A DNA stretch of 60,378 nt, taken from Proteromonas lacertae. Its lineage: Eukaryota. Location of the stretch: NCBI GenBank assembly GCA_002245135.1, contig NGBS01000005.1, positions 186,001 through 246,378 of the forward strand. Reading direction: 5' to 3'. The position numbers were made by a program, and so were the translations under genes. Under the pieces are notes generated by a model. It did no database searches, had not been told where the DNA came from, and saw nothing but the letters and a program-made list of their open reading frames with translations. The first letter of the stretch is position 1. Each line of letters opens with the position of its first letter. Positions 2,623 through 54,495 of the stretch are shown piece after piece.

Positions 2623-2756
2623 CTACTAAAATGAATATCCAATTTAATATATATTGTTTTTTGTATTTTAAAGAATAAAAGAAAATAAAAAATGAAATTG
2701 TAGGACTTTTTAAGTCAAAATTTAGTTCACACTTTTTTAAATACTGTTTCTTTTCT

Positions 2757-9739: not shown

Positions 9740-9898
9740 TTTTTGTGTAATTTTTGTGTTGTATATAGGATGTTACCATCATTTGGCATTAAATAATAAT
9801 GAAATAATTCAAAATGCTAAATAAATGGATGTGTAAACAAAATAACACGTTTATTGTGTGTGAAATTTACTTCACACTTTTTTAAAAGAAAAACAGTT

Positions 9899-10580: not shown

Positions 10581-10714
10581 CTACTAAAATGAATATCCAA
10601 TTTAATATATATTGTTTTTTGTATTTTAAAGAATAAAAGAAAATAAAAAATGAAATTGTAGGACTTTTTAAGTCAAAATTTAGTTCACACTTTTTTAAAT
10701 ACTGTTTCTTTTCT

Positions 10715-12395: not shown

Positions 12396-12803
12396 AAATC
12401 TACCAATTTCTAATTTCACTTGAATTTGAATATAATCAAATTTAATCATACTATTCATATATTCTTTGTTGTTTCATTATATAAAATCAAACACATATTT
12501 TTTACATAATTTAAAGAAAGGATTAAATAATTATGTCATTTCACTATTACTAACTTTGGATACATTTAATTTAACTAATATAGAAAATATTGATATTATA
12601 TAAATAAGCTGAAAACTATAACATCTCTCAAAATAATGAATTATATTATTTTCAAGCCTAAAAGCTTGAGTATTTTATTTTGTGAATGAATATTGAGATG
12701 CATATACTTTGATTCGAAATAAAAATACAATTAATGAGTTTTTATTATTTCAAACCCCAAAATAAACACATGATAAGGAAAGAAAATACCATTTCAAAGC
12801 TAT

Positions 12804-14459: not shown

Positions 14460-17400
14460 ATGTCAAAAGAACATACTGTGAGAGCTTTGGTGATTGTTAA
14501 TGTCCAAGTATTATTGCTCTAATGTTTTTATAATTAACTAGAACGATTATTTCCCAGGAGGTGCTTTAAGTATTGATGATGCTCCAGAAATTATCCCAGT
14601 AATAAATAAATTAAGGCGTAAAGATTTTGACTATACAATAATACTACAGTTGTGGCATCCACTTAATCATTGGTATAATATTTATTTTATATTCTTTTAT
14701 ATAGTTCATTTTGTTCAAATAACCCAGTATTTCTATAGAAATTTACTTATATTTTCCTTAGGGATATCCATTAGATAAAATTAGTCATTTGCCAGTTATA
14801 GGTTCTCAAATGTTGTGGCCAGACTTTTGCATTGCTGGTACAGCAGGTGCTGAGTTACATCCAGACTTACTTGTGAGAGGATCTGATATAATTGTAAGAT
14901 GTGGAACAGATCCAACAATAGATAATTGTATGAATCATTTCATATATAATTAACAATAGATTCTGGTTTCAGAGAATATAAAAAGAGTGAGCAAGGTCTT
15001 CTATCAGAATTATTCACTCAAAAATCAATAAAAGAGGTATATTTCTGTGGATTAGCTGTTGAATATGGTATTCAGTTTAATATATTAGATTGTGGCATAT
15101 ACGCCCCAACAGCGAAGATATTCTGTATAACAGATGCATGTAGAGGATTTAATCAAGAGGATGTGAAAGAAGTTTATAAAAAATTAGAATATGAAAAAGT
15201 AAGGACAGTATTATCAACAGGTTTAGAATTAATGCAACTAACAGAAAAAGATTTAAACTCATATACACAGAATACTTCACTCTGTGATATAATATGTAGA
15301 GGAAATGGTAAATATGAATTAGGTAAAGAAACACTACAACCAGGTGAAAAACCATATGTTGATAAAAAACAGAAATTTACACGAATAAGTGATGAAATAA
15401 AAGGATGTAATTTGCTTAGAGGGCAGAATATTGATAGATGTAGTATGTCCTCTGAATTTATGTTGTTAACATTTAGAATTAGATGTAGTTTATATATACT
15501 ATGGCCTGTTAACAATGTAGAAGCAAAATGGTTGAAATCTTATCATTTTTTAAAAACCAATTTTACTGCTTATACTGATTCAGGCAATTTGTCATTTAAT
15601 GTCTATCAAAAGAATGATATTATTAAACCTGGTGATCAAATTGTGCTAGGCGGAAGTGAAGGTATTTTGACAGATGAAAATACTACAAGTTATGTTGTTT
15701 GTTTTAGAGAATTACGTATATATATATATATATATTTATGTGTAAATAGAAACCGAAGTAAGTGATTTATGTAATGCAATATATTATGAATCAGATGATT
15801 TCATAACCAAATTACTAAAACAGTGTCCAAATCTGAATGGTTCAATTCCTCCACTAAATGAAACACCATTTCATTGTGCAATTAAATCAAGAAAACAATT
15901 TGTAATAAAATATTTAATGGATAATAATGCTGATATAAATGCAATAGATCGTAATGGAGAAACGCCATTACATTTAGCTTGTAGAATGAATGATATTGAC
16001 ATAATTAGTAAATTATTGATAATAGGTAATATTGATGTAAATATTGCATCTTTAATAGATGGTTATACTCCTTTAATGATTAGTTGTGAATTGGGTAATA
16101 TTGGAGCTGTTGAATTACTATTAGATAAAGGTGCAGATGCTTTAATTGAATCGTTTTATCAAACTACACCATTGTTTTTATCAATGAAACCTAATTATGG
16201 TGAAATGGAAAATGTTTCTTTAGAATTAATGAGAATGATATTTAGTAAAGTTGGTAATATGAATGCTAAAATTGAATTAATGAATTCCGAAGATAAACTA
16301 GGATGGAGTCCAATGTTCTTATTAGGTAAAACTGGATTATTAGCTGAAATAAATAGTTCTACAAACTTTGAAGTTTTACAATCGATGCCAATAAATAAGG
16401 TTCTTAAACAAGGATATTCATTTTTAGATATTATTACATGGAATGACCAATGTGATACAATATTCTGTTTACAAGATTCTACATATGATATTTGGCAAGA
16501 ATCATTGGTTGTTAATCGAATTAATGAAGAAACTGGATATAGTGAATTAGATTATGCTGTATGAATATAATCTGTTTATTATCATTATAATTTATAGATA
16601 TTAAAAGATCATTTTGATTGTATTTCTGCTTTAATATTAGGTGGTTCACATGTTACAAGATGTTCAGGAATATCAGTTAATAAAATATTGAATTATATGA
16701 TATTAGGTGGTGATATTGAAGCTGTAGAAGGTTTGTTGAGGTTTGATGAAAATAATATTGAAATTGATGATTTATTATTAAAATTAACAAAAAGAATGAA
16801 ATGTATGTATTCTAATGATTAATATATAATAATATTATATATAGACACTCACAGTTGTACATTCTCATTTGCAACATTTACCAATCCAATATCTCAACAT
16901 ATATATCACTGTAATGATTGTGATTCAAACATATGTTTGGTATGTAATAGTATTTGTCACAAAGAACACGATACAGTTTATATTGGACTAGTACAAGACA
17001 CTTATTGTGGATGTCAAAAGAATACATGTCAAGCAATACTTGGAGTAGATAAAAGAGAATCAGAAGGTTATAAATACGTTCCAATTCCAATTGATTCTTC
17101 CTCCATTCCAGATAATCACGATTTAGATATTTTAGTGGAATGTTTATCAGAGAATAGTCATGAAGTGTGGTGTTCTGAAAAAGTAGATGATGGGTGGAGA
17201 TATGGACCAAAAAGAGATAATGCGAATAAAATACATCCAATGATTAAAGCTTGGTGTGATTTGTCTGCTGAAGATAAGAAATGGGATATTGATGCTGCTA
17301 AACATAGTTTGAAATTGATTGAATATTTAGGATATGATCTTGAGTGTGTTTCTGAAGATATTTGTAAAGAATATATTGAAGAACATAATATTAAGCAAAG

Positions 17401-20400
17401 GTATATATATAAATATTATCTAGTTATTATTATTATTTAAATAGCAAAAGAAAATATATTCCAGATCCATTAGATACTTCAACAATAGAAGTTTCAATGG
17501 AACAACTTCCGTTGGTTCATTTATTAGCAAGAAACACACATGAAGAATGGTCACAAGAGAAAATGAAAGCAGGATGGAAGTATTCACCTGATCCAGCTAC
17601 AGCAAATAATCCAAAGGTAAGTTCAGAATTAGTTCCATACGAATATTTAACACAATCTGAAAAAGAAATGTGTCAAGTAAATGCATTGGAAATGATTAGA
17701 GGTATTTTGAAATTAGGATATACAATAAAGAAAAAAGAAGGAATGGAAAATATGACTGATAACTTTATGGATTTAAATGACATGGAAACTTTGAAAGATA
17801 ATATTGATCAAACTGAAAGAAATAAGATTGAATTATTCAATTTGTACTTGTTAAGAGCTTGTAGAAATGATCAAATTGATATTATTCCTAAATTGATATT
17901 ATCTGAAGACAGTATTATAGCTAATATTGATACGCAAGATAGTTTTGGACAATTTTCATTATTCATTGCAATTAAAAGAGGTTATATTGCCATCTGCGAA
18001 TTGTTGATAAAGAACAAAGCACAAATTGAATTAACAGATAATAATGGAACAACTCCATTGATGTTAGCTTCATTCTTAGGAAATTTCAAAATCTGTGAAT
18101 TATTACTAAGAAATGGAGCAAAAATTGAAGTGGAAGATAAAAGAGGTTTTACAGCAATACATCATGCCTGCGCAAATGGCCATGCACAAATCTTATCACT
18201 TTTATTAAGTGAAAAACATATTGATATTGATAATTTATATCATTCTGAAAATGATACTTTAACAAATCAAACTCAACAGAATAATAATAATAATAATAAT
18301 AATTTGAGTAGAGTATCTCAAAAAGAATCAGTAAAATCAACAAATCCTGATGATTTATTGTCACCAGATACTCCTGTCAATAATAAAAAATCTATGTTAA
18401 ATTCAAGAATGGTGATCAGAAATCTACAAGAACAAATGAAAAGTACAAAGACACCATTATCAGCAACAACAACCACTTCTGGTGGTAATACAAGTAATTT
18501 GACATCTGCAAGGCATGTTAATTTACATACATCACAAAAAGGAATGTTAAATACATCTGTTTTACATAGAAATAATAATAATGATGGATCTAGACCATCT
18601 ACAGCTGATAGTTCAAATGGAAATACTGTCAGAATATCAGTTAGAATGGGAAATGATATAGATGAAGAAAATGAAGAAGATGATGATGAAAATCATGAAA
18701 AAGCAAAAAAGGTATTAAATGGATTTAGTCCATTAAGTTTAGCTGTAAAAGCTGGTCATGTTGATGTAATTAAAGTCTTATTAGATCATGGAGTAAACCC
18801 AATGAAAGAAGATGGAACTCAAATTACACCATATGGAAGAGCATTATTGAAAGAAATTGCAGCAGCAATAAATGAAAACGAAAAGAAGAAGGCTGAAAAT
18901 AATGGAGAAAATGGTGATAATGAAGAAAATAAGAATGATGAAGATAAAGATAAAGAAAGAAAAAGATCATCAATATATCAAGGTAAAATAAGTCTTAATG
19001 ATCATCAATCTATAAGACAGAATAAGACTTCAATTAATCCAACATCAATACTGAAACCATCAACTCATGCTTCAACACTTCCAAAATATTCTTTGAATGT
19101 GAAGAATTCAATTCAACCACAACAAGATTCTACTAATGGAGTTAGATTATCATTGATTAAGAAGAGTCTACCTTCTGGTTTTCAAGCACCTGATATAAAT
19201 CAAATATTAAAAGAACAAGCAAAAAGAGATAAAGAGAAAAAAGCAAAAGAAATAAAATGGTGGCAATTTTGGAGAAAGAGACCTACAAAGAAACAAAAGA
19301 AAAAAGTAATACAATATGAATCACAAAAGAAAGTTGAGTGTTATTATGAAAATTTGCATATTAATGATAAATGGACAAATGTAATAATCAAAGACTTAAA
19401 GGAAAGACAACAATCAGAACCTGTTTCATCAAAATTACACAATGCTCAAGTGGTAGAATTATTATCAACATCACCAGAAGTATCAAAACACAAGATGGGT
19501 TATGGTATAAAACAATTCGTTTGGGAAGCTGTGATGTTTTTAATTGTTTATTTGGTGTTTTTAGTATTTACACCTGTATTCTTGGATTACCATTCTGAAG
19601 AAGAAACTATGTATCAATATCAAGTAGAAAATGATTTAGAAAATTATGGTTTTACATCAATTCAGTCATTTGATGATTTGGAAAAATGGACTTTGAGATA
19701 TTTTCTGGATTCTGGAATAACTGGAATGTTTGATGCAAGTATATAATAATATATATAATAATAATATCTTTTATTTAATAGCAAAACCACCAACATATCA
19801 TAGTAGTAGTTATGTATTTGGAGCATTATATATAAAAGAAGAATCCTATAGTACATTAGAATGTGAAAGTTTTGATAGAGTAATATTGAATGGAAGAGAT
19901 GAAATATGTGTAACTGGTGATGTTTATACTAGTTTTACAAAGAAATTGGGATTGTTTGATTTAGAAGAAGCTAAAAAAGAATACCAAGATGAATTATTGC
20001 CAATATTATCAAACAATCTAACTCAATCAGTGGATTATTATTTTCATGTTTTCAATCCTACAACCAGTAGAATATGTCAAATTGAATTAATAGTAGAAAG
20101 ATTAGAAACAGGAGAAATTAATCCAAAGCATAAAGTTACAACAATTATATTTTCATCCAATAGATTTCCACCATCTGTATAATATAATTATAATATATTC
20201 TTCATATTATATTTGTATTTAGATTCCTTTTGAAATAGTAGTTATTTTAGAGTTTATATTTGAAATGTTTTTTAAAGTAAGATACATCATTCAAAGTAAA
20301 GGTTTGGGAGATCAATTAAGAGATTTCTGGATGATTTATGATTGGATTATAATATTATGTCTATTTGTCTTAGGAATTGTAGATATTGTTTTAAATGTTA

Positions 20401-21398
20401 TTGTATATATATAAATATATTAATATATAAAATAAATAGTATCAAAAACATACAATTGATGTTTTATCATCAGATTTCATAGATTATTCATCATTAATAT
20501 CATTAGTAAAATATGAGTTAGATTTTATATCTTTTATATGCTTTTTATATGGTATGAGATTCATTAAATTTGTGCGTTTGATTCCAGGATGGGGACCAAT
20601 GATTTTAGCTGTTTTAAGAACTGTAGTTGATATTGATGTTTTGCTATACATTTGTGTATTCTTCTTTTTAATGTTTATATTAACATTTTGTTATATTATT
20701 GGATATGGTCCAGAAATAGTAGCTTTTGATGAAATATTTAAAACATTTTTCCATTTATTTTGCTCAGCTTTCAATCATGGATTTTCTGTCTTATTTAATT
20801 TAGATAGAAGATTTATGTTCACAGTTTATTTCTTAATATATGTTTTATTAGCAGCAATTTTGGTGAACTTGTTTATTGCTATTGTTTCCAGTGTATATCC
20901 TATTATTCGTGATCAATCTTATTTGAATTGGCATATATTAATGGCAGAATATATGGCTGATGATTATATAACAAAACAAACAGATAAAAAGAATAATTAT
21001 AGATTAAGAAGGAAGAGTATAATATATGATTTATATGATGAATTATATTGGGGTGATTTGATGGAAGGAAGAGATGGTTTGGTATATTGGACACCTACAG
21101 GCTTGTTTAGAAGAACAAATGAAACAAAGAGAAAGAATAAAGTATTTATATAATATTTTATTATCTTTAGAAAACAGCTGAAACTGAGATTAATCCACAA
21201 GATGAAAATCCAATCAATGAAGGGTTATTGGATGATATTAGTAAAATAAAAGTTAATATTGCTGAAAATACAACGACATTTTCTGAATTAACTGATCAAT
21301 TGACTGCGTTATCTGAAAAGATTAGAGTAATTGATTCAACATTAACAAGATTGAGTATAGTTCAAAATAAGATGTCTAAAAGCATAAAAAAGAAGTGA
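14460..21398 (+). CDS. PKD/TRP-type cation channel: pseudo-nicotinamidase, beta-sandwich, ankyrin repeats, UBR-box zinc finger, 2 RyR repeats, ankyrin repeats, 6-TM channel, coiled coil
   Basis: Continuous spliced frame through GT-AG introns from ATG 14460 to TGA 21396-21398. Ankyrin GETPLH/GYTPLM motifs; RyR LSENSHEVW...GWRYG and LARNTHEEW...GWKY; S4-S6 RFIKFVRLIPGWGPM...LVNLFIAIV. Confidence 0.85.
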
Positions 21399-21518: not shown

Positions 21519-22532
21519 ATGGAGAACTACCACATTTTGGTATAGATAATTTAATTATGTGTAGGAATATATTGGTAAAGGATCTTTTGGTGAAGTATAT
21601 AGAGGAAGAAGAAAGTATACTGGTCAAATAGTTGCAATAAAGTATATTCCTAAAATAAAAAAGGATGAAAATAATTTGAGTGACTTGAGAAGGGAGATTG
21701 AAATACTTCACAACCTTAATCACGAAAATATCATCTTTTTGATGGACAACTATGAGACAGAAGAAGCAATATGCGTTGTAACTGAGTATGCACATGGAGA
21801 CCTATACCAAATAATTTCTGAAGACGGCAAATTACCAGAAGAAACATTAAAAGTGCTAGCCAAACAGTTAATAGAAGCATTGTGCTATTTACATACAAAT
21901 AGAATCATTCATAGAGATATGAAACCTCAGAATATACTGATTACTGGTAATGAAATTATCAAATTGTGTGATTTTGGTTTTGCTCGTCACTTATCAGCTA
22001 AAGTATAATTATATATGTATTAAACTATCAATAGACAACATTTGTAACATCAGTAAAAGGTACACCACTCTATATGTCACCTGAATTAATTGAAGAAAAA
22101 CCATATTCATATTCTACTGATTTAGTATAATATATCTCTATATCTTTCTAGTGGTCATTGGGAATAATATTATTTGAATCAGCTACAGGTAAACCTCCCT
22201 ATTTTACTTCAAATATTTGTACATTAGTGAATCTTGTAAGAAAAGTATGTTTAATTACTGTTATTATTATTAAAATAGAATGCAATTGAATATCCTGATG
22301 ATTTATCGCCTGATTTATTATCATTATTAAAGAGCTTATTAAAGAAAGATCCAAATGAAAGAATTGGTTGGCCTGATTTATCTACTCATCCATTTATCAC
22401 TACTGCAACACCACAATCATTAGAGAAATCATATGAAGTATCAAATAATAGAGATAGAATTGAACTATTTACTAAATTAATACAAAATAACTTATTACAA
22501 GTGAATAATAACAATAATAATAATAATAACGG

Positions 22533-22570
<38 letters not shown>

Positions 22571-23326
22571 TGATGAGTTTTCTACTATTTATATGGAAGA
22601 GAATACATTTACTGAGTTTGAGAGTGTTGCTTCAGAATTATCAGATAATTATAATTGGAAAATAAACTCTGAAGAAACTGAGGATAATAAAGAGAAGTGT
22701 TTACAATTATTAAAAGATGATAATATGTTTTATCAAAACTCACATCATGCATTAGAGACTAATATCAAATCGTATTATATATATATATATATACTTTTAT
22801 ACTTATTATAATAGTGAAAATAATGAAATATGTAATTGTATTATAATCACATTAAAGAATGTAATTGAATTTGATTCTAATGTTGTTTCGTCTGTTAGTA
22901 TTATATGTAAAATAATGGAAATTATCTTGAAATACTATGACTATTGTGTTAATAATGGACTTGTAGAAGTTGAAATGAATTGTATTAAAACTATTAATGA
23001 AATATTATTGAAATCTTCATTCCATTTATATAGTAATGGTATATTATTATAATATATTATTGTTTCTATATAGAATTGAAATCAATATTCCCAAAACAAC
23101 TTCTATTTAGATTAATCTCTAGAAATTTGACTGTATTATTTTATTGATATAATTATTTGACTGAATAGCCAAATTCAAATCAAGTAGAAGGTGTAATAAT
23201 CCAAAGTATAAAGTTGTTAGGCACAGTATTTGATATCTTTACAACATATCCATTCACATTACAATCACAAATTAAAGAGATTATGAATTTAGATATCTTA
23301 TCAAAGTGTATACAATTATTAACATC

Positions 23327-23364
<38 letters not shown>

Positions 23365-25726
23365 TATTAGAAATGAGAATATATCTAGTTTATGTATTCA
23401 CGCTTTGGCATTATTACTTCATCCTATTACTATCATACTGAATGAAAGACGATGTTTTCCATTTTCAAGTTGTTGTAATAGTGCATTATTAACTGATGAG
23501 TTAAAGTCATTGTATATTTATATATATAACAATTTATATAATATATAAGACGATCAAATACAAATATAAGTCAACAGACTATGAAAGAACAACAAAGAAT
23601 AAAACAAATGATTAATCTTAGAGTACAAGAACTATTCACTACATTTCCACAATCTCGTCAAGTTCTTTCTAACTATTTATTGTCAAAACCATCAATTCAT
23701 TCAGCTGTATATAGAATATTGATTCATTTAAATCCTAATTGTGTTATATTGAATGATGAAATTATGAATATAATAATGAATATATCTAAACTTGATAAAG
23801 TTACTCAAGGATTTGATTTATTATATATTTTAACATTAATCAAATCACAATCAATGGAGTTAAAATATTATGTTGAAGTAATGGAATTAGCATTTAAATA
23901 TGTTAGTGAAAGTATTGAAATATCAACTATTGGTTGTCTAATAGTCAACACGGTTATTCAGAGTATATATATATAAATATATTGTTTATATATATAGTAA
24001 GTTCAAATGAAGAAAATAATATAAATGTTAAAAGTCCAAATAGAACATCCATCTTACAACAATTTAAACAACTGATACAATCATCAAATAATATCGTCGA
24101 AGTGTATATATATATATCAATTATATATTTATTTCCATAATAGTATTTTTAAACATTTACAATTTGGATCATTAGCTTCAATAATGGAAAGTAAAAGTCA
24201 TTCATTATTGCCATATCGTTTTATTGGTAATGAATATGGTTTATGTAGTATTGGAATATTGGATAGTTTTGTTAAATTGTTAGATAATATATTGGAAGTT
24301 GAACCAAATTATATTAACATTATATTTCAAAAGAGTGAATATTTTAATGAATTACATAACTTAGTATATATATAATATATATAATTAAATAGTTAATGGG
24401 TAGTCCTTTTTATGATTTATCTACCATAGGATTAATATCTTTGATAAAAATATTCAACAAACTATTACATTTCAATAAAACACTCTACAAAGACAATAAT
24501 TTCAATATTATGTTATGTTTCATTGAAATTGTTAAAGAGAAACATATTAATTGTATAATACAATACCCATATGATGGTTTATCAAATGCTATATTGTTGA
24601 TGAAGACTGTTAATAAAGAAATAATGAATATTATACAAGAGCCAGTATTAATATATATATATATATATTTGTTTTATTATATACTTAATAGAATGAGAAC
24701 CAAATCCAATCTGTACTATTCAACAATAATCTATTAATATCATATGTTGTAAATATTAATACATTTTTAAAATATGGCTTATCGATGGTATTATTAACTG
24801 ATATCATTCATTCTGTATATTTATTGTTACAGAAAGATAAGTGTTTTGTTAATCAATTCATTGAAAGTGGTGGTTTATTACCCATTAAAAACTATAAAAT
24901 ATTCAATGAAGATAATATTGATGATTTAATAATATCATATCTGTTAATTATTTCTTTCATTTGTAAAACAGATGGTAAATATTATAATGTGTTAAGTTCA
25001 ATGAATATTTTGAATGAATTATTACCACTTTTTGATAATAGAAACGCATTAGTAAAATCCAATGTATATTTATGTGATTTATTAATTATAGTTATGTTAT
25101 TGTTTTGGTAATTTATTCAGACATGATAAGACATTTATAATTCCTTCAGCAAAACAATATACAAATAGTAAGACTAATAAAAGTGAAATTTGTCTTAATA
25201 GATTGGTAGAATTATGTAGAGATAATGATGATAATACAAGAAAATATGCTTGCTTTGCTGTATATAGATATATATATTATTGTTATTAATTATGTGATAT
25301 ATATTATAGATTGGTAATGCTGCATTTATAAGTAGTGAAGTATATACTTCCTTGAAGAATGGAATTGATATCATCATATCTTTGTTAGATGATAGAAATG
25401 AAAAAGTAAAAGCAAATGCCATAGGAACACTAGGCAACTTGGTTAGAAACAGTGATGAATTATGTAAAATAATCGATGAGAAAAGGGGAATAAAGAAATT
25501 AATAAGTATTTGTCTAAATAATCATAGTGATGCTATTGTTGATTTGAGTTTATTCAGTCTTGGCAATATATGTAGTTATGATGAAATGAAAGTAATTGTA
25601 AAGAGAGATTATGTATAATTCTTTATATGTATTTTATAGCCTCAATTCATTGACTGGTTGACAAGAATGTATAAATCAAAATATACTAACAATATTAGTA
25701 GAATTAAAAAGAAATTAGATTTATAG
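21519..25726 (+). CDS. STK36: Fused/STK36 (TIO-like) Ser/Thr kinase with C-terminal ARM/HEAT repeats
   Basis: [63 protein letters not shown]-terminal [13 protein letters not shown] and [14 protein letters not shown]. Confidence 0.9.
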
Positions 25727-25816: not shown

Positions 25817-28800
25817 TTAACTATTTGAATTGGTAGTTGTATTCTTTTGAGTAAGAACAGTAGGAGTAATTGAAATTGATGTTTGAGGTGCTTTGGTTGA
25901 TGCTATTCCAGAAGTTCTATTTGAATAACTACCAAGATTTTTTTCACTATTTATAGACATTCTTGACTTTGAAGCAGAAGAGAAATTGTTTGTCTGTAGA
26001 TAAAATACATCTCCTGCTGATATTGTGCATAACCCAACATCACCTACTTCAAATACATTTGGTCTTAATTTAAATCTACCTCTCATCACTCCTTTTCTTG
26101 CAATACTTCTACTTTGTTTGGAATTATTGGAATTTGAGCCTGATGACGATGATCCCATTGTTGTTGTGGTGAAATAATAAAAGAACAGTTTAAATTTTGC
26201 AGCAAATTGTAAAACTAAAACAGCTATTACACATAATTCTACACCTATTCCTCTTAACATCATTAAAGTATCTGGTTGTTTAGCCATCATTAGATTCAAT
26301 GGAATTTCTAATATTCCAACAATAACTATTAAATTATATAAATAATAAATATAATATACTCATTATTCCTATTATTGAGGCTAATGTCTTTGATTCATTG
26401 AATTCGGATGAAGCTTTTCTTGTTTTCCATGCTAATCTTGCACCAAATAAGAATATCACTATTACTACACCAATTTCGATAAATGTAAATATATCATTTT
26501 CAGTACACTCTCTAATATAAACATCTTCTAAATAATTTGAATAATCTACACTATAGGTTTCAGTATAAACTGACGGATCTATTACCCACCAGACTGTCAA
26601 ATAGATTATTTGAACTAATTCTATTCCACCAATAATCTCCAATAACATAACATTCGATATTTTTACTTTCTTCATTTCTTTATTATTAAATAACTTGTGT
26701 ATTCTCCACGCTTTACATAACAATATTCCAAATAAGAAATCAACTGATAAAGCTACTAGCCACACTCTTAATGCACAAATCACATCATTTGGAGCTATTG
26801 TGAATATAAATCCAGACACACTTAATGCTATTAATGATACTAATGTGTAAGACAAAAATAAAGGTGAAGATGCTTTGATTATTTTCAAATGTCGGTAACT
26901 TAAGTACACCAACTAAAGCAGCAATACATATTAGAATCAATATTATCATTAAAACCATTACCAAGATTTTCAACGCTTCATTTGTCTCAAATAATACTTT
27001 ATCTTTTCCCAATTCACATTCAGAATTCTTCATATATGTCATTTGAGGTTCTAATATTTCTTCTTTTCCTTGACTTGGATAAACTTTAGATAATCGACCA
27101 CTCATTATTCTGAATAAATAAATTGGTTTTGTTGCATGATTGTTATATTTAATAGCCAAATTTCCACTCGGACTCTTGAAAGATACATACTTTATACTCA
27201 ATAGTTTATATCTTTTACTTGGCCATTGTTTTGTATCTTTCAACCCTTCTTGTTCAGCTGCATATTCAATCCCAGATTTCCATAAATATAACGAGGAATA
27301 ACTCACTTCATACATCTCATTCAAACTAATTGCATTTTGGAAATACGATTTCACTGTTTGGATAAATGCTTCTGCTTCAGTTGTAGTTAATGAATCGGTA
27401 AAGGATGTTGTTATATAATTACCCAGATATTTCATTTAAGTTTTCTTTATCAAAATCAGATTCATCATAATTTAATATTACAAATATAAAAGAGGACTTG
27501 GAGATTCCTGAGTTTTTAAAACGCTTCATACATTCATTATTATCTTTTCCTCGGAATAAATTAATTATAGCGAATGATTTGTATGTCAACGCAAGCGAAG
27601 TTAAACTATCATAAAGTTGAGAATATGAATTATCATTATATGGTGATAAAAAGTATTCTCCTATATATTCCATTGATTTACCATTAATATATTTTTTTAT
27701 ATAATCAGCTACTACTGATGTTGAATTATCAGTATTACCAAGCACGAATAAATAAGTAGTACCAATTGATTCTAAATAGTTTATTGTTCCTTCGATCTTC
27801 TGATTTATTGACATTCCCATCGACACTATTGAAGGTGCACATAAATTACCATCATCTGTACCAAGGAAGAAGAATTGAAAATCACTATCAACTGCACTTA
27901 TATATCGATAAACTTCATCTCGACATTTGGAACTCATACATCCAAATAAACCAACTGCATCTGTTTCTTGATCTATTGTTCTAACTGTTGAATATATCTT
28001 ACTTTGAGTTATGAAATAATGTTTAGCTATAATCTTTCTTCCATTTATACCTCCTTCTGAATTGATTTTTTCAATTGTCATATCTTGAATTAATAGATTT
28101 TGTTGTTCGGATTTACCACCTAAATCTATTTCATGTAAAAATGCAGTATGTATTGGATTTATATCAAATTTCTCGGATTTTTTGGTTTTCCAATCACAAT
28201 TAAAACCAACATCATCTCCTTCGATTTGATTATATACATCTGCTTCGACGGATTTCGAAGGCATCCAGTTTATATATATTTCATTATTCTCAGTTATATA
28301 ACCACTATATATATTTCTTTTGAAGAAATGATTAACTGCTAATTCGATACTTCCACTTGGAACATCTAATTGATAGTCATATTTAAATTCTACTTCTTTT
28401 GGATTTATTGAATTAGAATTTTGACAGATATTCTTCCAATATAATAATAATGCATAAGCACTTTCATATTGAGTTCTTATTTTCATTTCATCACCTATAT
28501 GAACATGTAATCCTTGAGAAAATACGGAAGCTAAAATTGGTATTGATACAGATGAAAGATCTTTAGATCTGGATTGATTCAAAATAACTACCAATCACTA
28601 TATGTCCAGATAAATACTTTGATTCTAAATCATTGAAGATATTTTCATCAAATAAAGTATTATAAACGGTATATTTTGGATATGTTAAACCTAATTCATA
28701 CATCGCTTTATAAAAATGAATGTAATATTCTTTACTTTCAAAAGTTGCTATTATATAACCACCATTTGGTATTGCTTGTTGAATTGTTCTAAGTTGAATA

Positions 28801-31800
28801 TTTGTCTTTTTCAAATCATATTCAATATTACCCATCAATAATACATTCGTATAACTCATTCTTGCTTGAATCATATCATTTACATATATTGTATAATTAG
28901 ATGGAGAATATACTGTTATCGCTGAAGTTGTATCTTCTAAGATTCTTCTTATTGTTATTGCAGCTATTTGACTTGGATGTAATTCACTTACTATTACATT
29001 CTTTGGACATACTTCACTGTATGTATGACCACAAAAGAAGAATAGCTTGTCTTTTTCTTTCATTTCATTCACTATTATTGGATAATCATCTGGATTATAT
29101 CCACCAAATATATAATCTATTCCATCTTTTTCTATTTCTTCGAATATTGATTTATAGTTTTTTGGATCAGATTTTACATCATATAATTTATAATACAATT
29201 GATAAGTAAGTAATTGCTCATAAGTATTTAAATATGTTATACCAGCTAGAATTGAATCAAATATTGGCTTTTCTAAAGGTGCTTGATTGCCAGTAAGTGA
29301 TAAAACTATTCCAATGGTATAAGTCGGCATTGACTTTCCATTTCCTATTGTTAAATCATTGAAATTACACATATAATAATTACCATCACTTGTCATTGAA
29401 AATGCTTTTGGATAATGCATTGTTTTAGCATCATACACCAACTTCCATTCATTATTCTTATTTTTATATGATATTTTCATTATTCTTCCTAAATATTGAT
29501 TTACTCCATATCCTACTAATCCTTCGGGTAATTCCATTGCTTCTTGATTTATTAACTCTTTTCGAACTTCTTTTTTGCTAAAGGTCTTTGTATTATCAAC
29601 TGCTTTTGCCCATAGTTTGATTGCAGAATATAATCCAGATAGAATATCATTTATGTATACTTCATTTCGATTTAATCTTTGATAAACATTATTAACAAAT
29701 TCTTTATTAAGTTCACTTTCATCTTCTCTATAATAACTCTGAATTACTTCATAATCATTATATTTCGACAATAATATAGCAGATGTTGGATCTGCTACAA
29801 TTATATGAATATGATTTTCATTCAATTGCTCAGCTTTTAGTTTATCAATTAAAAAATCATAATCCTCTAGATATCCACTAAAGAGTATACATACAAAAGT
29901 ATCTTCTTTTAATGAATCTTTTATTCTTTTTATCTGTTTTGAAATTTCATCTTTTGATTTAGCTACAACTGATATTTCATTAAAACTTTTCAAATATTCA
30001 TTTATATAATCTCCTGATTCAGAATCAATTTCTTTAGGAAAAGCTATTAAAAACTCATCATAATTTCTATTTCTTAACACATTTAAAGCTGAATCATATA
30101 AACTAATATGATCATTTGAAGTAAATAAAAACTCTTCACAACTCCCGATTGGATATTTAAATACATTGAATATTAGTATATCATTTGCTTTTGCATAATT
30201 ACTTATTCTATCTATACATTTTATACTATCTCCCAAAAATATAACTTTTGGATTATATACACCGATAATTCTAACCATCTCGTCACCACAGTTTTCTAAA
30301 TCAGATAATATATCATAAACAGCTGTTTCTAATTCTATTCCATTTACTCCACCATTATTATTTATTTCTTCTATTGCCATTTTGAATATATCTATTTCAC
30401 CTTTATTTAATTCACCTAATTCGCCAGATAGAGATGAAGCTAATAATACTCTTTCAGCTTCTATTAGAATATTGACTATTATTAACTGATGGAGCAAATG
30501 AACACATCATTCTAAAAGTCTCAGGAATATCCCAACTCCAAGGTCTTGGATCTACATACTTTTGTTTTGAATATGCTAATGAGAATTTTCCATTAGAGTC
30601 AAATTTACCAATATAAAACGGAGATGCTGGATAATGACTTGGATCAAATGAAAATTCACCTAAAGCATCATGTGTATTAACTTCTAACAGCTTCTCTCTT
30701 ACTACATCAGTATCAAATGATTTGGCTGCTTTTACTGCTTCTAACCACATCTTTATACCAAAATTTGCTGTATTTGTCAGTGATGTTGGTTCTGTTATAT
30801 AAGCATAATTATTCACAACTTTCTTAAATTCATCATTTGATTCAGATTCAATTACTCCAAAATATTCAGCTACTAGAAATACATTTTCTATGAATTCAGC
30901 TCTAAAAGGTTCATATTTTCCTATTTGAGATCTTGTATCAATAAACATATATTTATTCTTATCATAAGCAAGTTCATTCACTGCAATTAAAAACTTCTTC
31001 AATACATTTGTATCACTGATTGTGAATAATACTAAACCACCTCCATCCATTTTATCAATTAAAGATTTTATCCTATCATTTTCTACTCCTACTGATGAAT
31101 CAATTACATAAGCTCCTTTATAAAAATACATACCTCCACCTTGAGATTCGGCTATTGTTGATATTATTGTACAATCTTCTTTATCTTCAGTAATTGATAC
31201 AAAATTAGAAACTACTTCATCAGATATAAAATATTCTAATATTTGAGGAATATATTGATTTGGAGTTGGTCCTAAATAGAATGTATCATAATCACATTCT
31301 TGACCATAAAATCTATCAACATAGAAGAACAGAATATGATGTTTCTTACACACTTTTTGAGCTATTTCTTTACATTCTATATCTGTACATCCTATTGTCA
31401 TTTTCAAATCAAATTCTGTAATTTTTGAATTTAGATCCTCTTCATATAAACCCAAATCAGGATTATAATCAACTAAAATAGGTAACACTATTTTATCTAA
31501 TATGACTCCTTCTTCTAATTGTTTATGTAAAGCAGATAAAGCACCATATAACGATTTTTTATGCAAATCTTTTCTAACTCCATTTAAATCAAATATTAAG
31601 CCAACAGTAATATATTCATATTCATCATACACACCATTTTCTATATCACATTTCTGTAAATTTGTTCTTTGAAATAGAGTCAAAAATCCATTATTTACAA
31701 CTGGAAAAGAGTATTCATAATCAGAAGTTAATACCGCATCACCATCAGTAGAAAATGTTCTAGTTAAAATTTTAAAAGAACCATCAACATGATTATTACT

Positions 31801-34800
31801 TCGAAACATTATATCACTCATTACTGTCTCTACACTTGTTTTATAAACTAAGGATCTATATGCATCTCTATCAAATGATCCTTTTATCTTTAATAATTGA
31901 CATACATGATCTAAAGAACCATATCCTCTCAACACTGGCATAGATATATCTTTAAACATTGTTAATCTTGGGCGATATTCATTCTTTAGTTTTTCTATTA
32001 TTTTCTTAGATTCTTCATCATTTGTATTTTCACTATCAACATAAAAATGACCAACGAATTTATCACCTAAACTGTCACATTGTTGTTGATTTAAACCAGT
32101 ACTTAATGATACATATTCAGGAGGTTTCATATCTAATTTATCCATCACTTCTATTAATGATTGAGCAGATCCACCTTCTACCATTGATACAATCAAAGCA
32201 CCATTTCCTGTTTTTCTTTGAATCAATGATAATATACTTTCCAAATCAGTATATCCAAGAGGAATATCTAATTCATAATCAAATTTCTCATCAAACATTT
32301 CTAAATCTTCTTTTATTCTATTAGATAATGTCTCAGAATATAGTGTTCTTGAGTATATTAAAACATTCTTATCTTTCTTATGATCTCTTATCCAGTATGA
32401 TAATATAGAATAGGAATTTGTTGGTAAACCATAATAAAAGCTACTTGGTAAACATTCACTACCTTCATAATCATTTGTAGTTAATAATGTTCCATTAAAC
32501 TGAGTTATTGCTTCATTAATTGCTATTCTTATTTTTTTTTCCCATCCACCAAAGTAATACGTTATACCGTACTTATCATACATATCTTTTATTCTTTCTT
32601 TCACAGTTTCTTCATCATCTCCATCTGTTATTACATGTAATAGAATCTTTTTACCATTTACTCCTCCATTATTATTATAATCATAAATACCCATTTCTAA
32701 TCCAGATAATAATCTCAGAGAAGATTGAAAATATTGATCTTTGTATGGAAGTATTACTCCAAACATAACAGTTTCAACCAAATATTTTTCTCCTAAACCA
32801 TCTCTTCTATTACATTCATATAATTCATCAGTATTGAATTCTAAATAATATGGATCTGGTTCAAATGATTGGGTAATAATATCATAAAAATTAACATAGC
32901 CAGTTTCATTTATTCTACCAACAAATGATGGTAAAGTTAATCGATTATTTACTGCAAATGTAATATTCCCTAAAATATTTGATGTTGTTGTTTCATAAAG
33001 TTGTTTTCTAATATCTTCTGATTCAAATGCATCACTATCTCTCAGTACTCTTGCTAGATGGAATGTTACTGCATAAACATTTGCATCATTAAATGTGGGA
33101 TACACTTCATAACCTCCTGACTTTTGATATACTTCAACATATTTTAGATTTTCATCATCAATATCAGGAATAAATGATGTGATTACATAATTACCTTCTC
33201 CGATTTCTTTTTTAAAATGAGTATTTGACTGATCAAATAAATATACAGTATACTTTTTACTACATTCTTCTCTTGATTCAAACTTCCCACATATTTTCCT
33301 ATCATAAGTTTCAAAGAATATTTCTGATTGTTTTGATGTAAAAAAAGCAACAATTTTACCTCCTGTTTTCATTAAAAAGTATGAACTTACTATACAATCT
33401 GCCATACTCTTTTCAAAATCTGTTGTACCTACTTTACAAGCAACTGAAATTTCTATATTAAAAGCATCCAACATTGATTTTAGTATTTTTACTCTACTAT
33501 CATAAGATCCATCATCACAATAGATTATTGACACCTTACTTCGACTTAATGATGATAAATACAATCCAAATGTATATATTTCTTGATTTGGTGTTACAGT
33601 TGAATAGTAAATTGTATCTTCACAAGAATCACCAACAGAATTTGAAGTATAAAAGAATAAAATACTACTACTTGCGAGTGAAGGAACTATGTAATTCTTA
33701 GTTTGGGAATTACATCCACCAATTATCAAATCAATTCCTCTCTGTTGTAATCTAATTATAAGGTCAGATGCAGTTTCTTGAGATGATGGACAATCATGTA
33801 ATTCGGTTCTTATATATCTATTCTTAATAGCAGATTCATCATTCAATTGAGATCTTAATTGAATAATGGAATTGTAAGTCCAAAAATAATGTTCATATTC
33901 AATATTGGTTATATCTAAAATATAGGCAATTCCAACTGTTTCGATTTCTTCCATTACTTTGGTTGGTGTAACTGAATAATCACTATCTACATAAATATTA
34001 TCATGAAGTAAATATAAAAATGGTTCTGGCATTATTGGATTTTCAATTGCACTATAAAAAACATCAGTACCATTCTTTATCACGTATGTATAAAATGGAA
34101 AACTCATATAATTATTCTTAAATAATGTTGTTTTACCTATTGGTGAGGAAACTGGATGAGAATAGAAATAGCTCTTTAAACTATAATCATTATTTTTATT
34201 AATTCCATCGCTAATTGCACTTCTCATCATTATTAGAGAGATATATAATGCTAAATGAACATTATTAATTATTGTATTAGCATCTCCTTTATATGTATCC
34301 ACATATTTCTTTAAGTTGTTATTCTCCGTATTGTCTACATCTACATTATAAACTGTAGTATAGTATATTCCTTCTGCATTTGTTCTATTTTTGAACATTG
34401 ACCCTATGTAATCACACACATACATTGGTAATGTATGATCACGATAATTACCATTAAATGTAGAAATCAATATTTCTGTATAATCAATTACAGCTGTATA
34501 CATAAAGAATCTATCATAATCATTGCCTGTTATATTATGTATTCTTTCAGTTACATTTTCCCAATCATCACTAGATGGATCTACTCCAATTCCTTCTACT
34601 CTTCCTTTCATTGATTCTCCTAATGCTTTCATATATCTGAATGTATTTACAGAATCTCTATATATAAATAAAACATATAGTTATACTCATTGTTTAATAA
34701 ATAAACAAATATAATTGTTTGATTTCTAGACAGTTGATCTATCATATTAGATTCTAATCTTTGATTTGATATTGAATTAATCATCAATATATTCTCATAT

Positions 34801-37550
34801 GAAACTTCTCCACCAGACGGAGTTAAAGAAAATAATAATTTCTTTTGATCTACTAATATATCAGCTAATGTATCTCTTTCTTCTTTTGTTTGAGTACCAC
34901 AATAACATAAAATATTATTACTATCTTTACCCAATTCTTTTACTGTATCTTGCAATTCTTTCATTGAAGTATAATGAATATATTCAGGTATTATTTCTCT
35001 TCCATTTATTCCACCATCTTGGTTAACTATATCAAATATATAAGAAAAATAATCCATTAATTCACTATCAGCAGTTGAATGTCTATTATAAACCATTACT
35101 ACCTTATATGTTTTGAAATCAGTTATTGGCATTTCACCATCTTTATATTCACAAGTTTTTGTCTTGTTGTAAAAAGCATAAACTCTATTATTGGTTACTT
35201 GGTCTAAAAGATTAACTGATCTTATACTACTTACATTTTTTATTTGAAAAACTCCTAATTTACCTAAAGCATAGCCATTGTAATAAATTTCATATTGATC
35301 AAAAGCTGGATTTTTGACTGCTTGATGAAAAAAATAATCTTTATAATCTGATGGTAATAACGATGATGATGATTCAATTGACTATACAATATTAACATAA
35401 TTATATAAATATTATACTTGAACAATCAATGAAAATAGATTATGAATCAAAGCAATTTGTTGAAACAATGGAATATTTCTACTTGTATATTTTTTCATAT
35501 AATTTCTAAATGGATCTAAAACTGATGATTCCATCTCATTATTACTATGTGCAAGGAATATAGTATCCGTAAATGCAAATCTTCTATTATCTTTTCTATA
35601 CTCATCCACAGTAAGTTCATCTAATAAATATGCAATTGTTGTAAAATTATTTTCGAAAGTCATTCCTTTTTCATATAAAACTGGTATTAATACATCAAAA
35701 AATGACTTCTTAACAACTAACACCACAGCTGTTCTATTATATTCACCAACTGGCATTTCACTGATTTGTTTAGTTATATTATTTGCTTCTTCTTTTGAAG
35801 CACTTAACATATCATAATATCCAATATTTTCTTTAGGATATCCTCTTGATTTTAATTCTTCTGTTAATATATTTCGACTAGTTTTACCAAAGAATAATGT
35901 CGCACCTACTATAAACACTCTATCATAATTATTCTCCATTATATATTGAGCTGTTAATGAAGAATATGAAGTTGCAATAAAATCACCAAATATCACATTC
36001 TTGAAACAATTTTCACCTGGAGTTTCACCTATATAAAAAATTTGAATATCATAATCATATAATGCATCTTTAAACTCTATCATCTTTTCATAATCAGATA
36101 CAATAAAGATAGTATGAAGTTCAATTGTGTTGTATAAATCTAATATTTGTTCTACTAAAATACTTGTTTCTTTGCTTACATCCAAAATCAATTGAGTAGC
36201 TTTTCTTCCTATTACCATACCCTATCAAACAATAATAATAATAAAGTAAATATACAGCTTCAGACATCATTTTGTCAATATATAAACGAATTAGCTTGTT
36301 TTTGTAAGTAGACATATCTAATATAAAACCAATTGGTAATGCTGTAATTGTTGATATTCCTGTGTTTGGATTAGTCTTGAAATTACATGTTGTTGTTTCA
36401 ATTGAACCATAATATTCATTAACTCCAAAATCAAGATCATATGGGATTGTGAATGTTGGAGTCATTACTGAATTTGCATATCTAGATATTGTAAAAGATA
36501 ATGTAATGTAATGATTAGGCAATATATATAAATCACCACCTGGATAGGGTAATGGTTTATTATAAAGTAATGGTAGAAGTGAACTGATTTTGGTTGTTTC
36601 ATATTTACGGTTTATCTCAAGAAACCCATCTAATATACCAGCTACTAAAGCATATTCATATCCTGATGCATCAGCGAATAAAGTAGGATAAGCAGATTTG
36701 TATTTTGTTGTAGAATTAAAATCTTCTTTACCAGTATAACCACTGACAAAGTAATTACCTGGATTCTTACTTAGCATTGTTGATTCTAAAAGCTTTATTA
36801 AACTCAAAGATCCAGGTATATAGATTAGAGGATACCTGTCTACACTAGTGCTTAAACCTGTTATTTTTGCATCTCTCTTGGTTAATAAAGTATTTAGTTT
36901 TGTTTCATCATTTATTATCACTAATGTGGCAACCTGACCATAACTAGTATTAACAGTAGCATCCAGATATTCATCCATTATAGCATCAGTAAGTGTCTCG
37001 TTTGATGAATATATTATATTTCCTCCAAATAAACTGGCTGTTGATACAATCCTATCCATATAAAAGTTATTCAACTCTTTATCACCTTCTCCATCAAAAA
37101 GAATACTAAAATATCCTCCAAAACTAACTCCAACAGGTGTAAGTACTATTTAAAAAAAAAGCAAGAATAATATATACTTCCTTCAATAAAAGGTATAATT
37201 GACACTCCACTAATGATATTCTTCGAGCATCTTCCAACACTGTACGTGTTAGTGCATACAACTAATACCTTACCTTCAGTTAAAATGCTGGATTTCGAAT
37301 TATACAAATTGTTATCACACGTCATTAAGACTATATCACCTTTTTTTTCTACAGCTTCCTTCAATTCTGTATCATAACCTTCAGAATCACTGGACTGTAC
37401 AATATCTATTTCTATTCCATCGGTATTTCTACCATATGGCTCTAAGAAGTCTTTGTATATACTAGCAGCTCTATCTCCGATATATACTAAAGTCAAACAG
37501 TAAACACTGCTTAAAAACACCAAGTAAAGTAGTAACAACCCTTTTATCAT
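25817..37550 (-). CDS. Giant class C (7tm_3, GABA-B/mGluR-like) GPCR with nine tandem UrtA/AmiC-like periplasmic-binding domains; four apparent +1 frameshifts
   Basis: Signal peptide MIKGLLLLYLVFLSSVYC. Repeats contain AIEEINNNGGVNG, LFGCMSS, YEGSEC and GPTPNQ. 7TM motifs IIKASSPLF, C..RVW, KAWRIHKLF and EFNESK. Five GT-AG introns. Confidence 0.85.
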
Positions 37551-48691: not shown

Positions 48692-49709
48692 CTATATTTT
48701 AAAATATAAATCTGATTTTATCTTCAACGAATAATAATTTATGTAGTTCCTTCTGTACATTTCTAATTGAGTCTATATAAGTGATATACAACAAAATATA
48801 AATACAATTAAAGCAGGAACTGTTGATTCTTTAGCATAACTACCTAAATCTTTAATTTGTTCATCACATACAGACTTTCTCATAACTATCTCTTTATCAA
48901 CTTTCTCTTTAATCAATTTACTAGTGACTTTATTTCCTAAATTGGAATTAACACTATTGAGTAAAAGATCTTGTTTTTCTTTCACTGTTTTAGCTAATTC
49001 ATCAGATGTACCGTATGTTTCAATTAATAGCTTATTTGTGATTTGTAATGTATTTTCTATCTCCTGTAAATTGCGCTTTCTTATTTGTTTTAATCTTTCA
49101 TATTTAGATTGAAATGGTTCTACTGAATTGTAGAGTATAAATGGAAAATTTTCTTGTGTTAATACATAGTTCAATGCTTTATCACTATTATAAATAAATA
49201 AATGCCATTATTATTATACGTTAAATTAGTAATGTTATATTCTGAAGGACATGAGGTAGCCAGTGTTGAAAATATCACAGGTACTATATGTTTGTATGTA
49301 TAAAAGAGTTATTTATACGAGTTTGAGATAAATCTGTCTGTGCAGACCAAGTATTTGAGATATAGGGACAATAGGCTAGAACACCTCTTTCATCCACCCA
49401 CGCATGACATCTAACTGGACTTAATGAAATGATTGGAGGGACATTTGGAAAGTTTGGTGGAAGATTTATTGCTATGTGTAAATTACTCACTTTTATATAT
49501 ATACTGACTTGATAAATATCATTTCCTATTTGTATCTTACATACAAATGTGTCAAAACCCGCTGCTGAACTTCCTACTTGTGTGATTCGGTTTGGACTTT
49601 GAAGAAGTAGGTTAATTTGTTGTTGTCTTCTATATAAAATAACAAAACCTAATATTTAATACAATGATAAAGTCTGTGATACTGGTCTTACACCTGTTGA
49701 TCTTAACAT
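48692..49709 (-). CDS. UEV-domain plus coiled-coil protein, VPS37A-like (ESCRT-I)
   Basis: RRQQQI..L, INLPPNFPNVPP.I...P...HAWVD..G; C-terminal helical region. Confidence 0.55.
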
Positions 49710-49773
49710 TTTAACTTTTGGGTGTTCCAAAATTTTGTTGTGATTTTGTTTTTAGCATATTTTGACTGAAACA

Positions 49774-51955: not shown

Positions 51956-52134
51956 ATCTCATTTTCTCATTCCTTGATTTTTATTGTTTTTTAGATAAAA
52001 TAATAAAACCTAATATTTAATACAATGATAAAGTCTGTGATACTGGTCTTACACCTGTTGATCTTAACATTTTAACTTTTGGGTGTTCCAAAATTTTGTT
52101 GTGATTTTGTTTTTAGCATATTTTGACTGAAACA

Positions 52135-54316: not shown

Positions 54317-54495
54317 ATCTCATTTTCTCATTCCTTGATTTTTATTGTTTTTTAGATAAAATAATAAAACCTAATATTTAATACAATGATAAAGTCTGTG
54401 ATACTGGTCTTACACCTGTTGATCTTAACATTTTAACTTTTGGGTGTTCCAAAATTTTGTTGTGATTTTGTTTTTAGCATATTTTGACTGAAACA

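What the first reader, a model, noticed from the sequence alone, without database searches (positions are those of the whole stretch)
27010..37550. Class C GPCR with nine tandem UrtA/AmiC-like solute-binding domains
Seen: a ~3500-aa ectodomain of nine ~380-aa repeats starting near 37500, 36340, 35100, 33940, 32770, 31610, 30450, 29320 and 28150. Most end in a Cys linker (TCNF, TCEY, ECNR, KCDI, MCSF, MCNF, NCDW, ECEL). A 7tm_3 domain follows. Motifs SLSG/SLTG, AIEEIN..GG.NG, FGC.SS..R, YEG.EC and G.TPNQ match the bacterial urea/amide ABC-binding family (UrtA/AmiC) rather than the ANF-type Venus flytrap. Established: canonical class C GPCRs have one flytrap. Inference: an independent fusion of a bacterially derived binding protein to a 7TM, amplified into a divergent multi-ligand antenna. 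The central ~8 kb has no introns, unlike neighbouring genes.
Basis: partly seen in the sequence, partly recalled or inferred. Interest (0 to 1): 0.85.

Follow-up and report, generated by a model that had tools for sequence, protein, structure and literature searches.

The report
Nine-flytrap receptor from bacterial urea binder
A eukaryotic (likely protist) surface-receptor gene strings nine copies of a domain derived from bacterial urea-binding proteins in front of a class C GPCR membrane domain; all nine have lost the urea pocket, so it likely senses something else, while relatives in other eukaryotes keep the pocket and are predicted urea receptors.

Summary
The architecture is real. The minus-strand gene 37550-25817 encodes a signal peptide, nine ~385-aa units, a 7tm_3 domain and a Ser/Thr-rich tail. 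The units are UrtA-type: a profile built only from them and two orthologues scores cyanobacterial UrtA 254-263 bits and ANF flytraps at most 7.

- The frame is broken by four +1 insertions that orthologues read through, probably assembly errors.
- The 'Cys linker' is UrtA's own C-terminal cysteine.
- No unit keeps the urea pocket (0-2 of 9 residues), and pocket positions are no better conserved than background, so 'multi-ligand antenna' is unproven.
- It is not a one-off: 23 of 150 top hits have two or more such units plus 7tm_3, including Capsaspora and a chytrid.

Some relatives keep a complete urea pocket and are predicted urea-sensing GPCRs; their membrane-proximal unit is degenerate in every one examined. 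Class C receptors with bacterial binding domains are already known. The UrtA origin, the arrays of up to nine units and the intact urea pockets were not found in print in my searches.

The parts
37494..37550 (-). Start codon and predicted signal peptide
   Evidence: Hydrophobic N-terminus; ATG at 37550
36366..37493 (-). Unit R1, most divergent UrtA-type unit (contains intron 1, 37177-37146)
   Evidence: 35.9 bits vs shuffle max 6.0; no Pfam hit; single-sequence fold failed
35132..36363 (-). Unit R2 (introns 36255-36222 and 35417-35382)
   Evidence: 78.5 bits to family profile; introns
33951..35129 (-). Unit R3 (intron 34686-34658); lacks both conserved Cys
   Evidence: 126 bits; Cys census
32793..33948 (-). 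Unit R4
   Evidence: 146 bits; best BLAST hit is the same position in P0008
31629..32790 (-). Unit R5
   Evidence: Best PDB hit is a urea-binding protein, E 3e-19 for the stretch; orthologous unit P0008_m5
30483..31626 (-). Unit R6
   Evidence: Near full-length Peripla_BP_5 match; orthologous units m4
29348..30480 (-). Unit R7; +1 frame break near 30465 at its start
28177..29345 (-). Unit R8 (second from membrane), candidate main sensing unit; +1 break near 28572
   Evidence: Highest window score to a cyanobacterial UrtA HMM, 94 bits; 5 of 9 pocket positions shared with each orthologue
27003..28174 (-). Unit R9 (membrane-proximal), candidate transducer; +1 break near 27431
   Evidence: Most conserved unit, 36-38% identity to orthologues; all m1 units of the clade group together
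26176..26997 (-). Class C 7TM domain (7tm_3); +1 break near 26899; intron 26359-26326 in TM6
   Evidence: Pfam 129 bits; seven hydrophobic segments; motifs
25817..26175 (-). Ser/Thr-rich cytoplasmic tail and stop codon

Best explanation
The gene encodes a class C GPCR whose ectodomain is a chain of nine UrtA-derived flytrap domains that have all lost the urea pocket; it likely works as an orphan sensor in which the second unit from the membrane (R8) would bind a non-urea ligand and the degenerate proximal unit (R9) would pass the movement to the 7TM. SHOWN: the architecture; UrtA-type identity; loss of the urea pocket; a fixed order of units counted from the membrane across relatives; and no cysteine-rich domain between R9 and TM1. 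INFERRED: each unit is stapled by one internal disulfide. INFERRED from minimal relatives (signal peptide, intact UrtA, degenerate UrtA, 7TM): the ancestral receptor sensed urea or a small amide with a binding unit plus a non-binding lever unit. INFERRED: R1-R7 are older duplicates kept mainly as spacer or scaffold, some perhaps with new ligands. INFERRED from class C biology: dimerisation and G-protein output. INFERRED: the four +1 breaks are assembly errors (about 0.7) and the real gene is intact.
For: UrtA identity: a profile from R2-R9 plus P0007/P0008 only scores cyanobacterial UrtA 254-263 bits, other annotated UrtA 171-190, AmiC-like 46-157 and five ANF flytraps at most 7.4. Pfam, NCBIfam and PDB agree. 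Fixed register: the best hit of each of R5-R9 is the same position in an orthologue, and most of the next hits are too. Proximal unit degenerate: in the four named or unnamed outlying 7tm_3 relatives (P0009, P0021, P0025, P0066) m1 scores 36-97 bits to UrtA while an upstream unit scores 216-558, with pockets of 0-2 of 9 versus up to 9 of 9. The AF2 model of the two-unit chytrid relative P0066 (pLDDT 77, pTM 0.67) folds both units with the same topology, followed by seven helices; top Foldseek hits are UrtA, then AmiC, then GABA-B receptors. Disulfide: 74 of 81 domains keep both Cys, 4 lose both and 3 lose one; about 0.4 double losses are expected if independent (my arithmetic). Signalling motifs: TM3 Lys/Arg, TM6 Glu and loop Cys are present (motifs as described in PMC3727952). 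Errors rather than decay: no internal stop in 3850 codons, GC3 0.15 vs GC1 0.37, all four breaks +1, and three more single-base insertions in a duplicated gene elsewhere in the window.
Against: No ligand, expression or G-protein evidence. R8's pocket excess (5 of 9 vs 0.30 background) is not significant (binomial about 0.1, my arithmetic, one of six positions examined). The AU test did not reject grouping the window's units with ANF flytraps in the more thorough search (p 0.169). It rejected that grouping only with a fast constrained search (p 0.022), whose constrained tree was 22 log units worse. The TM7 proline of the PK motif is replaced. Absence of stops is weak evidence: P 0.06-0.13 at an assumed 10 substitutions per indel. 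Tandem copies 1 and 2 at 49612-54334 show almost no indel differences, so the assembly is not uniformly error-prone. The structure model is of a relative, not of the window's protein.
Confidence: 0.5

Rival explanations
1. Multi-ligand antenna: each unit evolved its own pocket, and the receptor integrates up to nine small-molecule cues.
For: Every unit keeps the full bilobed length and most keep the Cys pair. Positions are retained over long divergence. Pocket residues differ from unit to unit. Bacterial AmiC-like proteins with other partners also keep only 4 of 9 UrtA pocket residues.
Against: Pocket positions are not conserved above background between orthologues (30 of 88, 34%, vs 29%), whereas intact units show 90% vs 47%. 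It is hard to see how closure of distal units would reach the membrane across many domains (inference).
Confidence: 0.22
2. The ectodomain is purely structural or adhesive: a long stalk of pseudo-binding domains that contacts proteins, glycans or surfaces, with the 7TM signalling on contact or constitutively.
For: No pocket constraint. Identity to orthologues falls from R9 (36-38%) to R6-R7 (25-28%). 19 N-glycosylation sequons. Unit number varies among relatives.
Against: Unit number in relatives is confounded by ORFs cut at introns. Minimal relatives keep a complete urea pocket. No adhesion motif or GAIN domain was detected.
Confidence: 0.15
3. This copy is a recent pseudogene (or needs recoding): the four +1 insertions are real, and only a secreted product of about 2300 aa, or nothing, is made.
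For: Four frameshifts in 11.5 kb. No shared slippery motif at the breaks. Near-identical tandem copies elsewhere suggest some regions are accurate.
Against: No nonsense codons; all breaks have the same sign; similar single-base insertions occur in another gene of the window; orthologues are intact.
Confidence: 0.13

Closest known systems
GABA-B-type class C GPCRs (ANF flytrap joined to 7tm_3 without a cysteine-rich domain)
   Same: 7tm_3 domain with TM3 Lys/Arg and TM6 Glu; type I binding-protein fold joined to TM1 with no NCD3G domain. GABA-B structures are the best full-receptor Foldseek hits of the chytrid relative's model. The idea of a binding and a non-binding flytrap parallels GABA-B1/B2 (recalled).
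   Different: Nine units in one chain instead of one; units are UrtA-type, not ANF-type; TM7 proline replaced.
Protist and fungal class C GPCRs with bacterial solute-binding ectodomains (Bmp, OpuAC, SBP_bac_1, PBP_like_2, and a lumped '/Peripla_BP//7tm_3/' class)
   Same: Bacterial-type binding protein fused to 7tm_3 (PMC3251606 section 20; PMC3971589 passage and supplementary figure list; PMC5168858 and PMC10445921 passages).
   Different: The passages I saw name no UrtA/urea-binding domain and no tandem array. Ectodomains reported in PMC3251606 reach 1667 aa, versus about 3470 here.
Bacterial UrtA (urea ABC transporter binding protein; PDB 8HIC, 7S6E, 7S6F, 8TG1) and AmiC (1PEA)
   Same: Best PDB, NCBIfam and profile matches; the Cys pair is shared with 6 of 6 cyanobacterial UrtA.
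   Different: Window units are 14-23% identical to UrtA, keep 0-2 of 9 pocket residues (PMC10392092 numbering), fall far below the TIGR03407 cut-off, and are fused to a 7TM rather than serving a permease.
UrtA-type 7tm_3 relatives found here: Capsaspora CAOG_05347 (P0025), Phlyctochytrium KAJ3101170 (P0066), unnamed P0009, P0021, P0007, P0008
   Same: Tandem UrtA-type units plus 7tm_3. P0007 and P0008 are collinear orthologues; P0009 also has nine units.
   Different: P0009 (four units 9 of 9), P0021 (9 of 9) and P0066 (7 of 9) keep the urea pocket, and their 7TMs fall outside the window's clade.

Membership tests
Class C GPCR | 7tm_3 domain above the Pfam cut-off, seven TM helices | tested here: met
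   129 bits vs 33.5; seven segments in the read-through model
Class C GPCR | TM3 Lys/Arg, TM6 acidic residue, extracellular Cys pair | tested here: met
   sequence; motif description from PMC3727952 passages
Class C GPCR | TM7 PK motif | tested here: not met
   Lys kept, Pro replaced by Ala; orthologue P0008 also lacks Pro, P0009 has it
Class C GPCR | Signal peptide and large extracellular type I binding-protein fold | tested here: met
   model of relative P0066
Class C GPCR | Uninterrupted reading frame to the 7TM | tested here: inconclusive
   Four +1 breaks in this assembly; orthologues intact; no reads available
Class C GPCR | Obligate dimer | not tested
Class C GPCR | G-protein coupling | not testable with these tools
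   No genome held; needs an assay
mGluR/CaSR/T1R/GABA-B (ANF-flytrap) subfamilies | Single ANF_receptor flytrap | tested here: not met
   Nine units; profile score of ANF controls at most 7.4 vs UrtA 171-263; ANF_receptor 27.8 bits on one ORF vs Peripla_BP_5 125; tree test mixed
mGluR/CaSR/T1R subfamilies | NCD3G cysteine-rich domain | tested here: not met
   No hit; R9 joins TM1 directly
UrtA (TIGR03407) | Score above curated cut-off 492.75 | tested here: not met
   Best ORF 200.8 bits summed over three stretches
UrtA (TIGR03407) | Urea pocket W120 S122 Y141 Q144 E146 Y190 F192 N246 S274 | tested here: not met
   0-2 of 9 in all nine units by two alignment methods; residues from PMC10392092
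UrtA/AmiC superfamily (descent) | Closest profile and structure family is UrtA/AmiC | tested here: met
   ML tree places the units with UrtA/AmiC-type proteins at SH-aLRT 99, on long branches

The most novel reading that the evidence does not exclude
A cyanobacterial-type urea-binding protein entered eukaryotes once, duplicated into a 'binding unit plus lever unit' pair, and was bolted onto class C 7TMs (and onto TRP-like/TIR receptors in dinoflagellates). This gave an undescribed family of urea-sensing GPCRs spread over chytrids, filastereans and other protists. One AT-rich lineage then expanded the array to nine position-fixed units, the longest flytrap chain on a GPCR seen in this search, and re-tuned the pockets to new cues.
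Probability: 0.35. Interest if true: 0.8.

Novelty: new variant of a known kind. Interest (0 to 1): 0.62.

Why it matters
Class C receptors are understood as dimers with one flytrap per chain. A natural family with two to nine flytraps per chain and a degenerate proximal unit poses a testable question: how does closure of a distal domain reach the 7TM? The relatives with a complete urea pocket (P0009, P0021, and nearly P0066) are directly testable candidates for a urea-activated GPCR, which my searches did not find described. The two-unit chytrid protein is small enough to express, and could serve as a biosensor scaffold. The window's gene itself is the degenerate end of that family and, as assembled, is frameshifted, which limits what it alone can show.

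Tried and rejected
Searches that returned nothing useful:
- Whole-genome paralogue count: no genome is held.
- Read support for the frameshifts: no run was listed; this is no evidence either way.
- Word-based protein search with residues 630-1400 of the long ORF: none of 7990 candidates. With the 7TM: 1 of 1700.
- Metagenome loci: none, then one distant class C gene from another organism (L013).
- Earlier findings of the scan: nothing in three look-ups.

Tests on R1: single-sequence AF2 gave pLDDT 33 and was unusable; Atlas gave no hit at or above 0.9; hhalign gave probability 14%. R1 rests on the profile-versus-shuffle test alone.

Other attempts: self-BLAST showed no off-diagonal hits, so repeats were compared after cutting. 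Homodimer prediction of the proximal unit was not available. One IQ-TREE run timed out.

Rejected:
- Short introns at the four breaks. Candidates of 16-49 nt exist at three breaks and none under 97 nt at the other, but orthologues align through without gaps.
- A split into several genes.
- Programmed frameshifting at a shared motif.
- Urea binding by the window's units.
- The Blastocystis-type downstream motif as a lineage marker: 12 hits, several inside coding sequence, not diagnostic.

Not resolved: single versus repeated fusion to the 7TM. The UrtA-type receptors do not form one clade in the 7TM tree, but deep support is weak and no test was run.
Full report
GENE STRUCTURE. Ten minus-strand ORFs tile 37550-25817. 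Five junctions are joined by AT-rich GTAT...AG introns of 32, 34, 36, 29 and 34 nt. The other four junctions, near 30465, 28572, 27431 and 26899, are each a +1 frame change. Spliced as it stands, the frame stops at aa 2322. With X at the four breaks it runs 3854 aa with a signal peptide, seven TM segments and no internal stop. Two relatives, P0007 and P0008, cross all four points in one ORF, with one residue opposite each 4-nt step and no gap. The breaks are therefore single-base insertions in one gene, not introns or gene ends. I put assembly error at about 0.7. For: no stop in 3850 codons, all breaks of one sign, and three more single-base insertions at 3348, 3351 and 3412 relative to a duplicate near 11306-11368. 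Against: the no-stop argument is weak (P 0.06-0.13 at an assumed 10 substitutions per indel), and two tandem 2.36-kb copies elsewhere are nearly indel-free. No reads were listed.

THE NINE UNITS. Cut at the recurring Cys, the ectodomain gives nine units of 366-391 aa with 10-20% pairwise identity. Pfam ranks Peripla_BP_5 first wherever a binding domain is hit (6 of 10 ORF pieces), and ANF_receptor appears once, at 27.8 bits. NCBIfam ranks TIGR03407 UrtA first, but far below its cut-off. The best PDB matches are four urea-binding proteins, then AmiC (8 sequences matched). A profile from 72 domains of divergent relatives, containing no window, bacterial or intact UrtA sequence, scores R2-R9 at 78-249 bits and R1 at 35.9. 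R1's 500 shuffles reach at most 6.0. A profile from R2-R9 plus P0007/P0008 scores six cyanobacterial UrtA at 254-263 bits, other annotated UrtA at 171-190, AmiC-like proteins at 46-157 and five ANF flytraps at 7.4 or less. Two caveats apply: the relatives' domain boundaries came from a UrtA-seeded HMM, and the cyanobacterial set was chosen as best hits to P0009.

TREES. An ML tree of 44 of the 104 domains (R1 and most relatives' units left out) places the units with UrtA/AmiC-type proteins away from ANF, at SH-aLRT 99 and on long branches. Forcing them with ANF costs 21 log units and is not rejected (p-AU 0.169). A tree holding all eukaryotic UrtA-type domains together was 12.7 units better than the free search. 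A faster four-tree test rejected the ANF grouping (p 0.022), but from a poorer constrained tree. The profile result, not the tree, carries the UrtA assignment.

THE CYSTEINES. Of 81 family domains, 74 keep both, 4 (including R3) lose both and 3 lose one. This fits an intradomain disulfide (inferred; not seen in a structure).

THE POCKET. Nine residues line the urea site of Prochlorococcus UrtA (PMC10392092, passages). The window's units keep 0-2 of 9 by both hmmalign and MAFFT. Against same-position orthologue units, pocket identity is 30 of 88 (34%) versus 29% background; among eight intact eukaryotic units it is 90% versus 47%. Urea binding is rejected for this protein, and conserved unit-specific ligands are not shown. 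R8 is the only hint (5 of 9 with both orthologues), and it is not significant.

THE FAMILY. A search with P0001, the one relative first found, gave 1654 hits at E<=0.001, of which 150 were listed. Of these 150, 45 carry a UrtA-type stretch plus a 7TM hit and 23 carry two or more units; Pfam 7tm_3 was seen in all 23, one below cut-off. Many are cut at introns, so unit counts are minima. P0009 has nine units, four with 9 of 9 pocket residues, and one unit is 55-57% identical to cyanobacterial UrtA. P0021 has a 9 of 9 unit and P0066 a 7 of 9 unit. In these, the membrane-proximal unit is degenerate. The intact eukaryotic units, including one from a dinoflagellate, form a clade (98) sister to cyanobacterial UrtA (99). 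In the window's AT-rich clade (7TM support 0.99) each unit from R5 to R9 best matches the same position in an orthologue, so this part of the array was fixed early. At the 7TM level the UrtA-type receptors are interleaved with other class C receptors, with weak deep support; one or several fusions remain open. An AF2 model of P0066 (24-row alignment, pLDDT 77, pTM 0.67) shows two domains of like topology and seven helices; Foldseek ranks UrtA, AmiC, then GABA-B receptors.

MECHANISM. Most likely an orphan class C receptor. The ancestral module is a urea/amide-binding unit plus a non-binding proximal unit that levers TM1 (inferred from P0066 and P0021). In this lineage the pockets were lost or re-tuned; R8 is the best candidate sensor, R9 the transducer, and R1-R7 spacer or accessory units. 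Dimerisation and G-protein output are inferred from class C biology (recalled) and from the TM3 Lys/Arg and TM6 Glu (PMC3727952 passages); the TM7 proline is missing.

ORGANISM. Not established. The window is 20-30% GC per kb with introns of about 30 nt, which resembles Blastocystis-type stramenopiles (PMC12129017 passages: 30-bp introns in human subtypes, 21-23% GC with longer introns in tortoise isolates). This is a resemblance only.

PRIOR ART. Bacterial-type binding domains on 7tm_3 are known: PMC3251606 (passages and section 20), PMC5168858 and PMC10445921 (passages), and PMC3971589 (one passage; part 1 of 2 of supplementary file 3, which lists '/Peripla_BP//7tm_3/' without readable taxa; file 1 could not be searched). 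PMC12716839 (passages) notes diverse non-metazoan ectodomains; its supplementary file 12 was not among the one file held and may annotate the Capsaspora protein. PMC12965686 (abstract and section 6) describes a GPI-anchored flytrap without a 7TM. Searches for UrtA-type or tandem-flytrap GPCRs showed no such description in their listings: 0 papers; 2 unrelated. The library lacks most subscription papers.

VERDICT. A real feature and a new variant of a known kind; interest 0.62. The most testable result is the set of relatives with intact urea pockets.

Noticed in passing
window 14950-21153 (+): Consecutive ORFs with ankyrin repeats, two RyR domains, more ankyrins and a PKD/ion-transport domain. 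PMC7399828 (passages) found RyR domains only in RyRs and oomycete PKDRR channels; here they lie upstream of the channel. Whether the ORFs form one gene was not tested.
   Followed up: partly
window 3348, 3351, 3412 vs 11306-11368: Three single-base insertions in one copy of a duplicated gene shift its frame over about 65 nt.
   Followed up: yes
window 49612-56654: Three tandem 2.36-kb gene copies; the first two are nearly identical and the third is 88% identical. No Pfam hit for the two ORFs scanned.
   Followed up: partly
window 1-725 vs 9266-9990; 2260-4504 vs 10211-12456: Segmental duplication including a Rad51-family fragment and a predicted surface protein.
   Followed up: no
P0009, P0021, P0066: 7tm_3 receptors with complete or near-complete UrtA urea pockets: candidate urea-sensing GPCRs.
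   Followed up: partly
P0248 (Polarella glacialis), P0219, P0213: An intact plus a degenerate UrtA pair on other outputs: weak TRP-like and TIR hits (P0248), ephrin-like and weak TIR (P0219), glutaminase (P0213).
   Followed up: partly
P0059: Unnamed 1716-aa class C GPCR with three tandem ANF flytraps, showing tandem amplification of the ordinary type too.
   Followed up: no
P0199-P0211: Proteins of 1100-1600 aa with UrtA domains plus HEAT repeats or a Ser/Thr kinase; the two examined (P0199, P0207) have two UrtA domains each and group with bacterial UrtA.
   Followed up: no
window 21565-25618 (+): Protein kinase with downstream armadillo/HEAT repeats, resembling Fused/STK36 (name recalled; domains), ending about 200 nt from the receptor's stop.
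   Followed up: no
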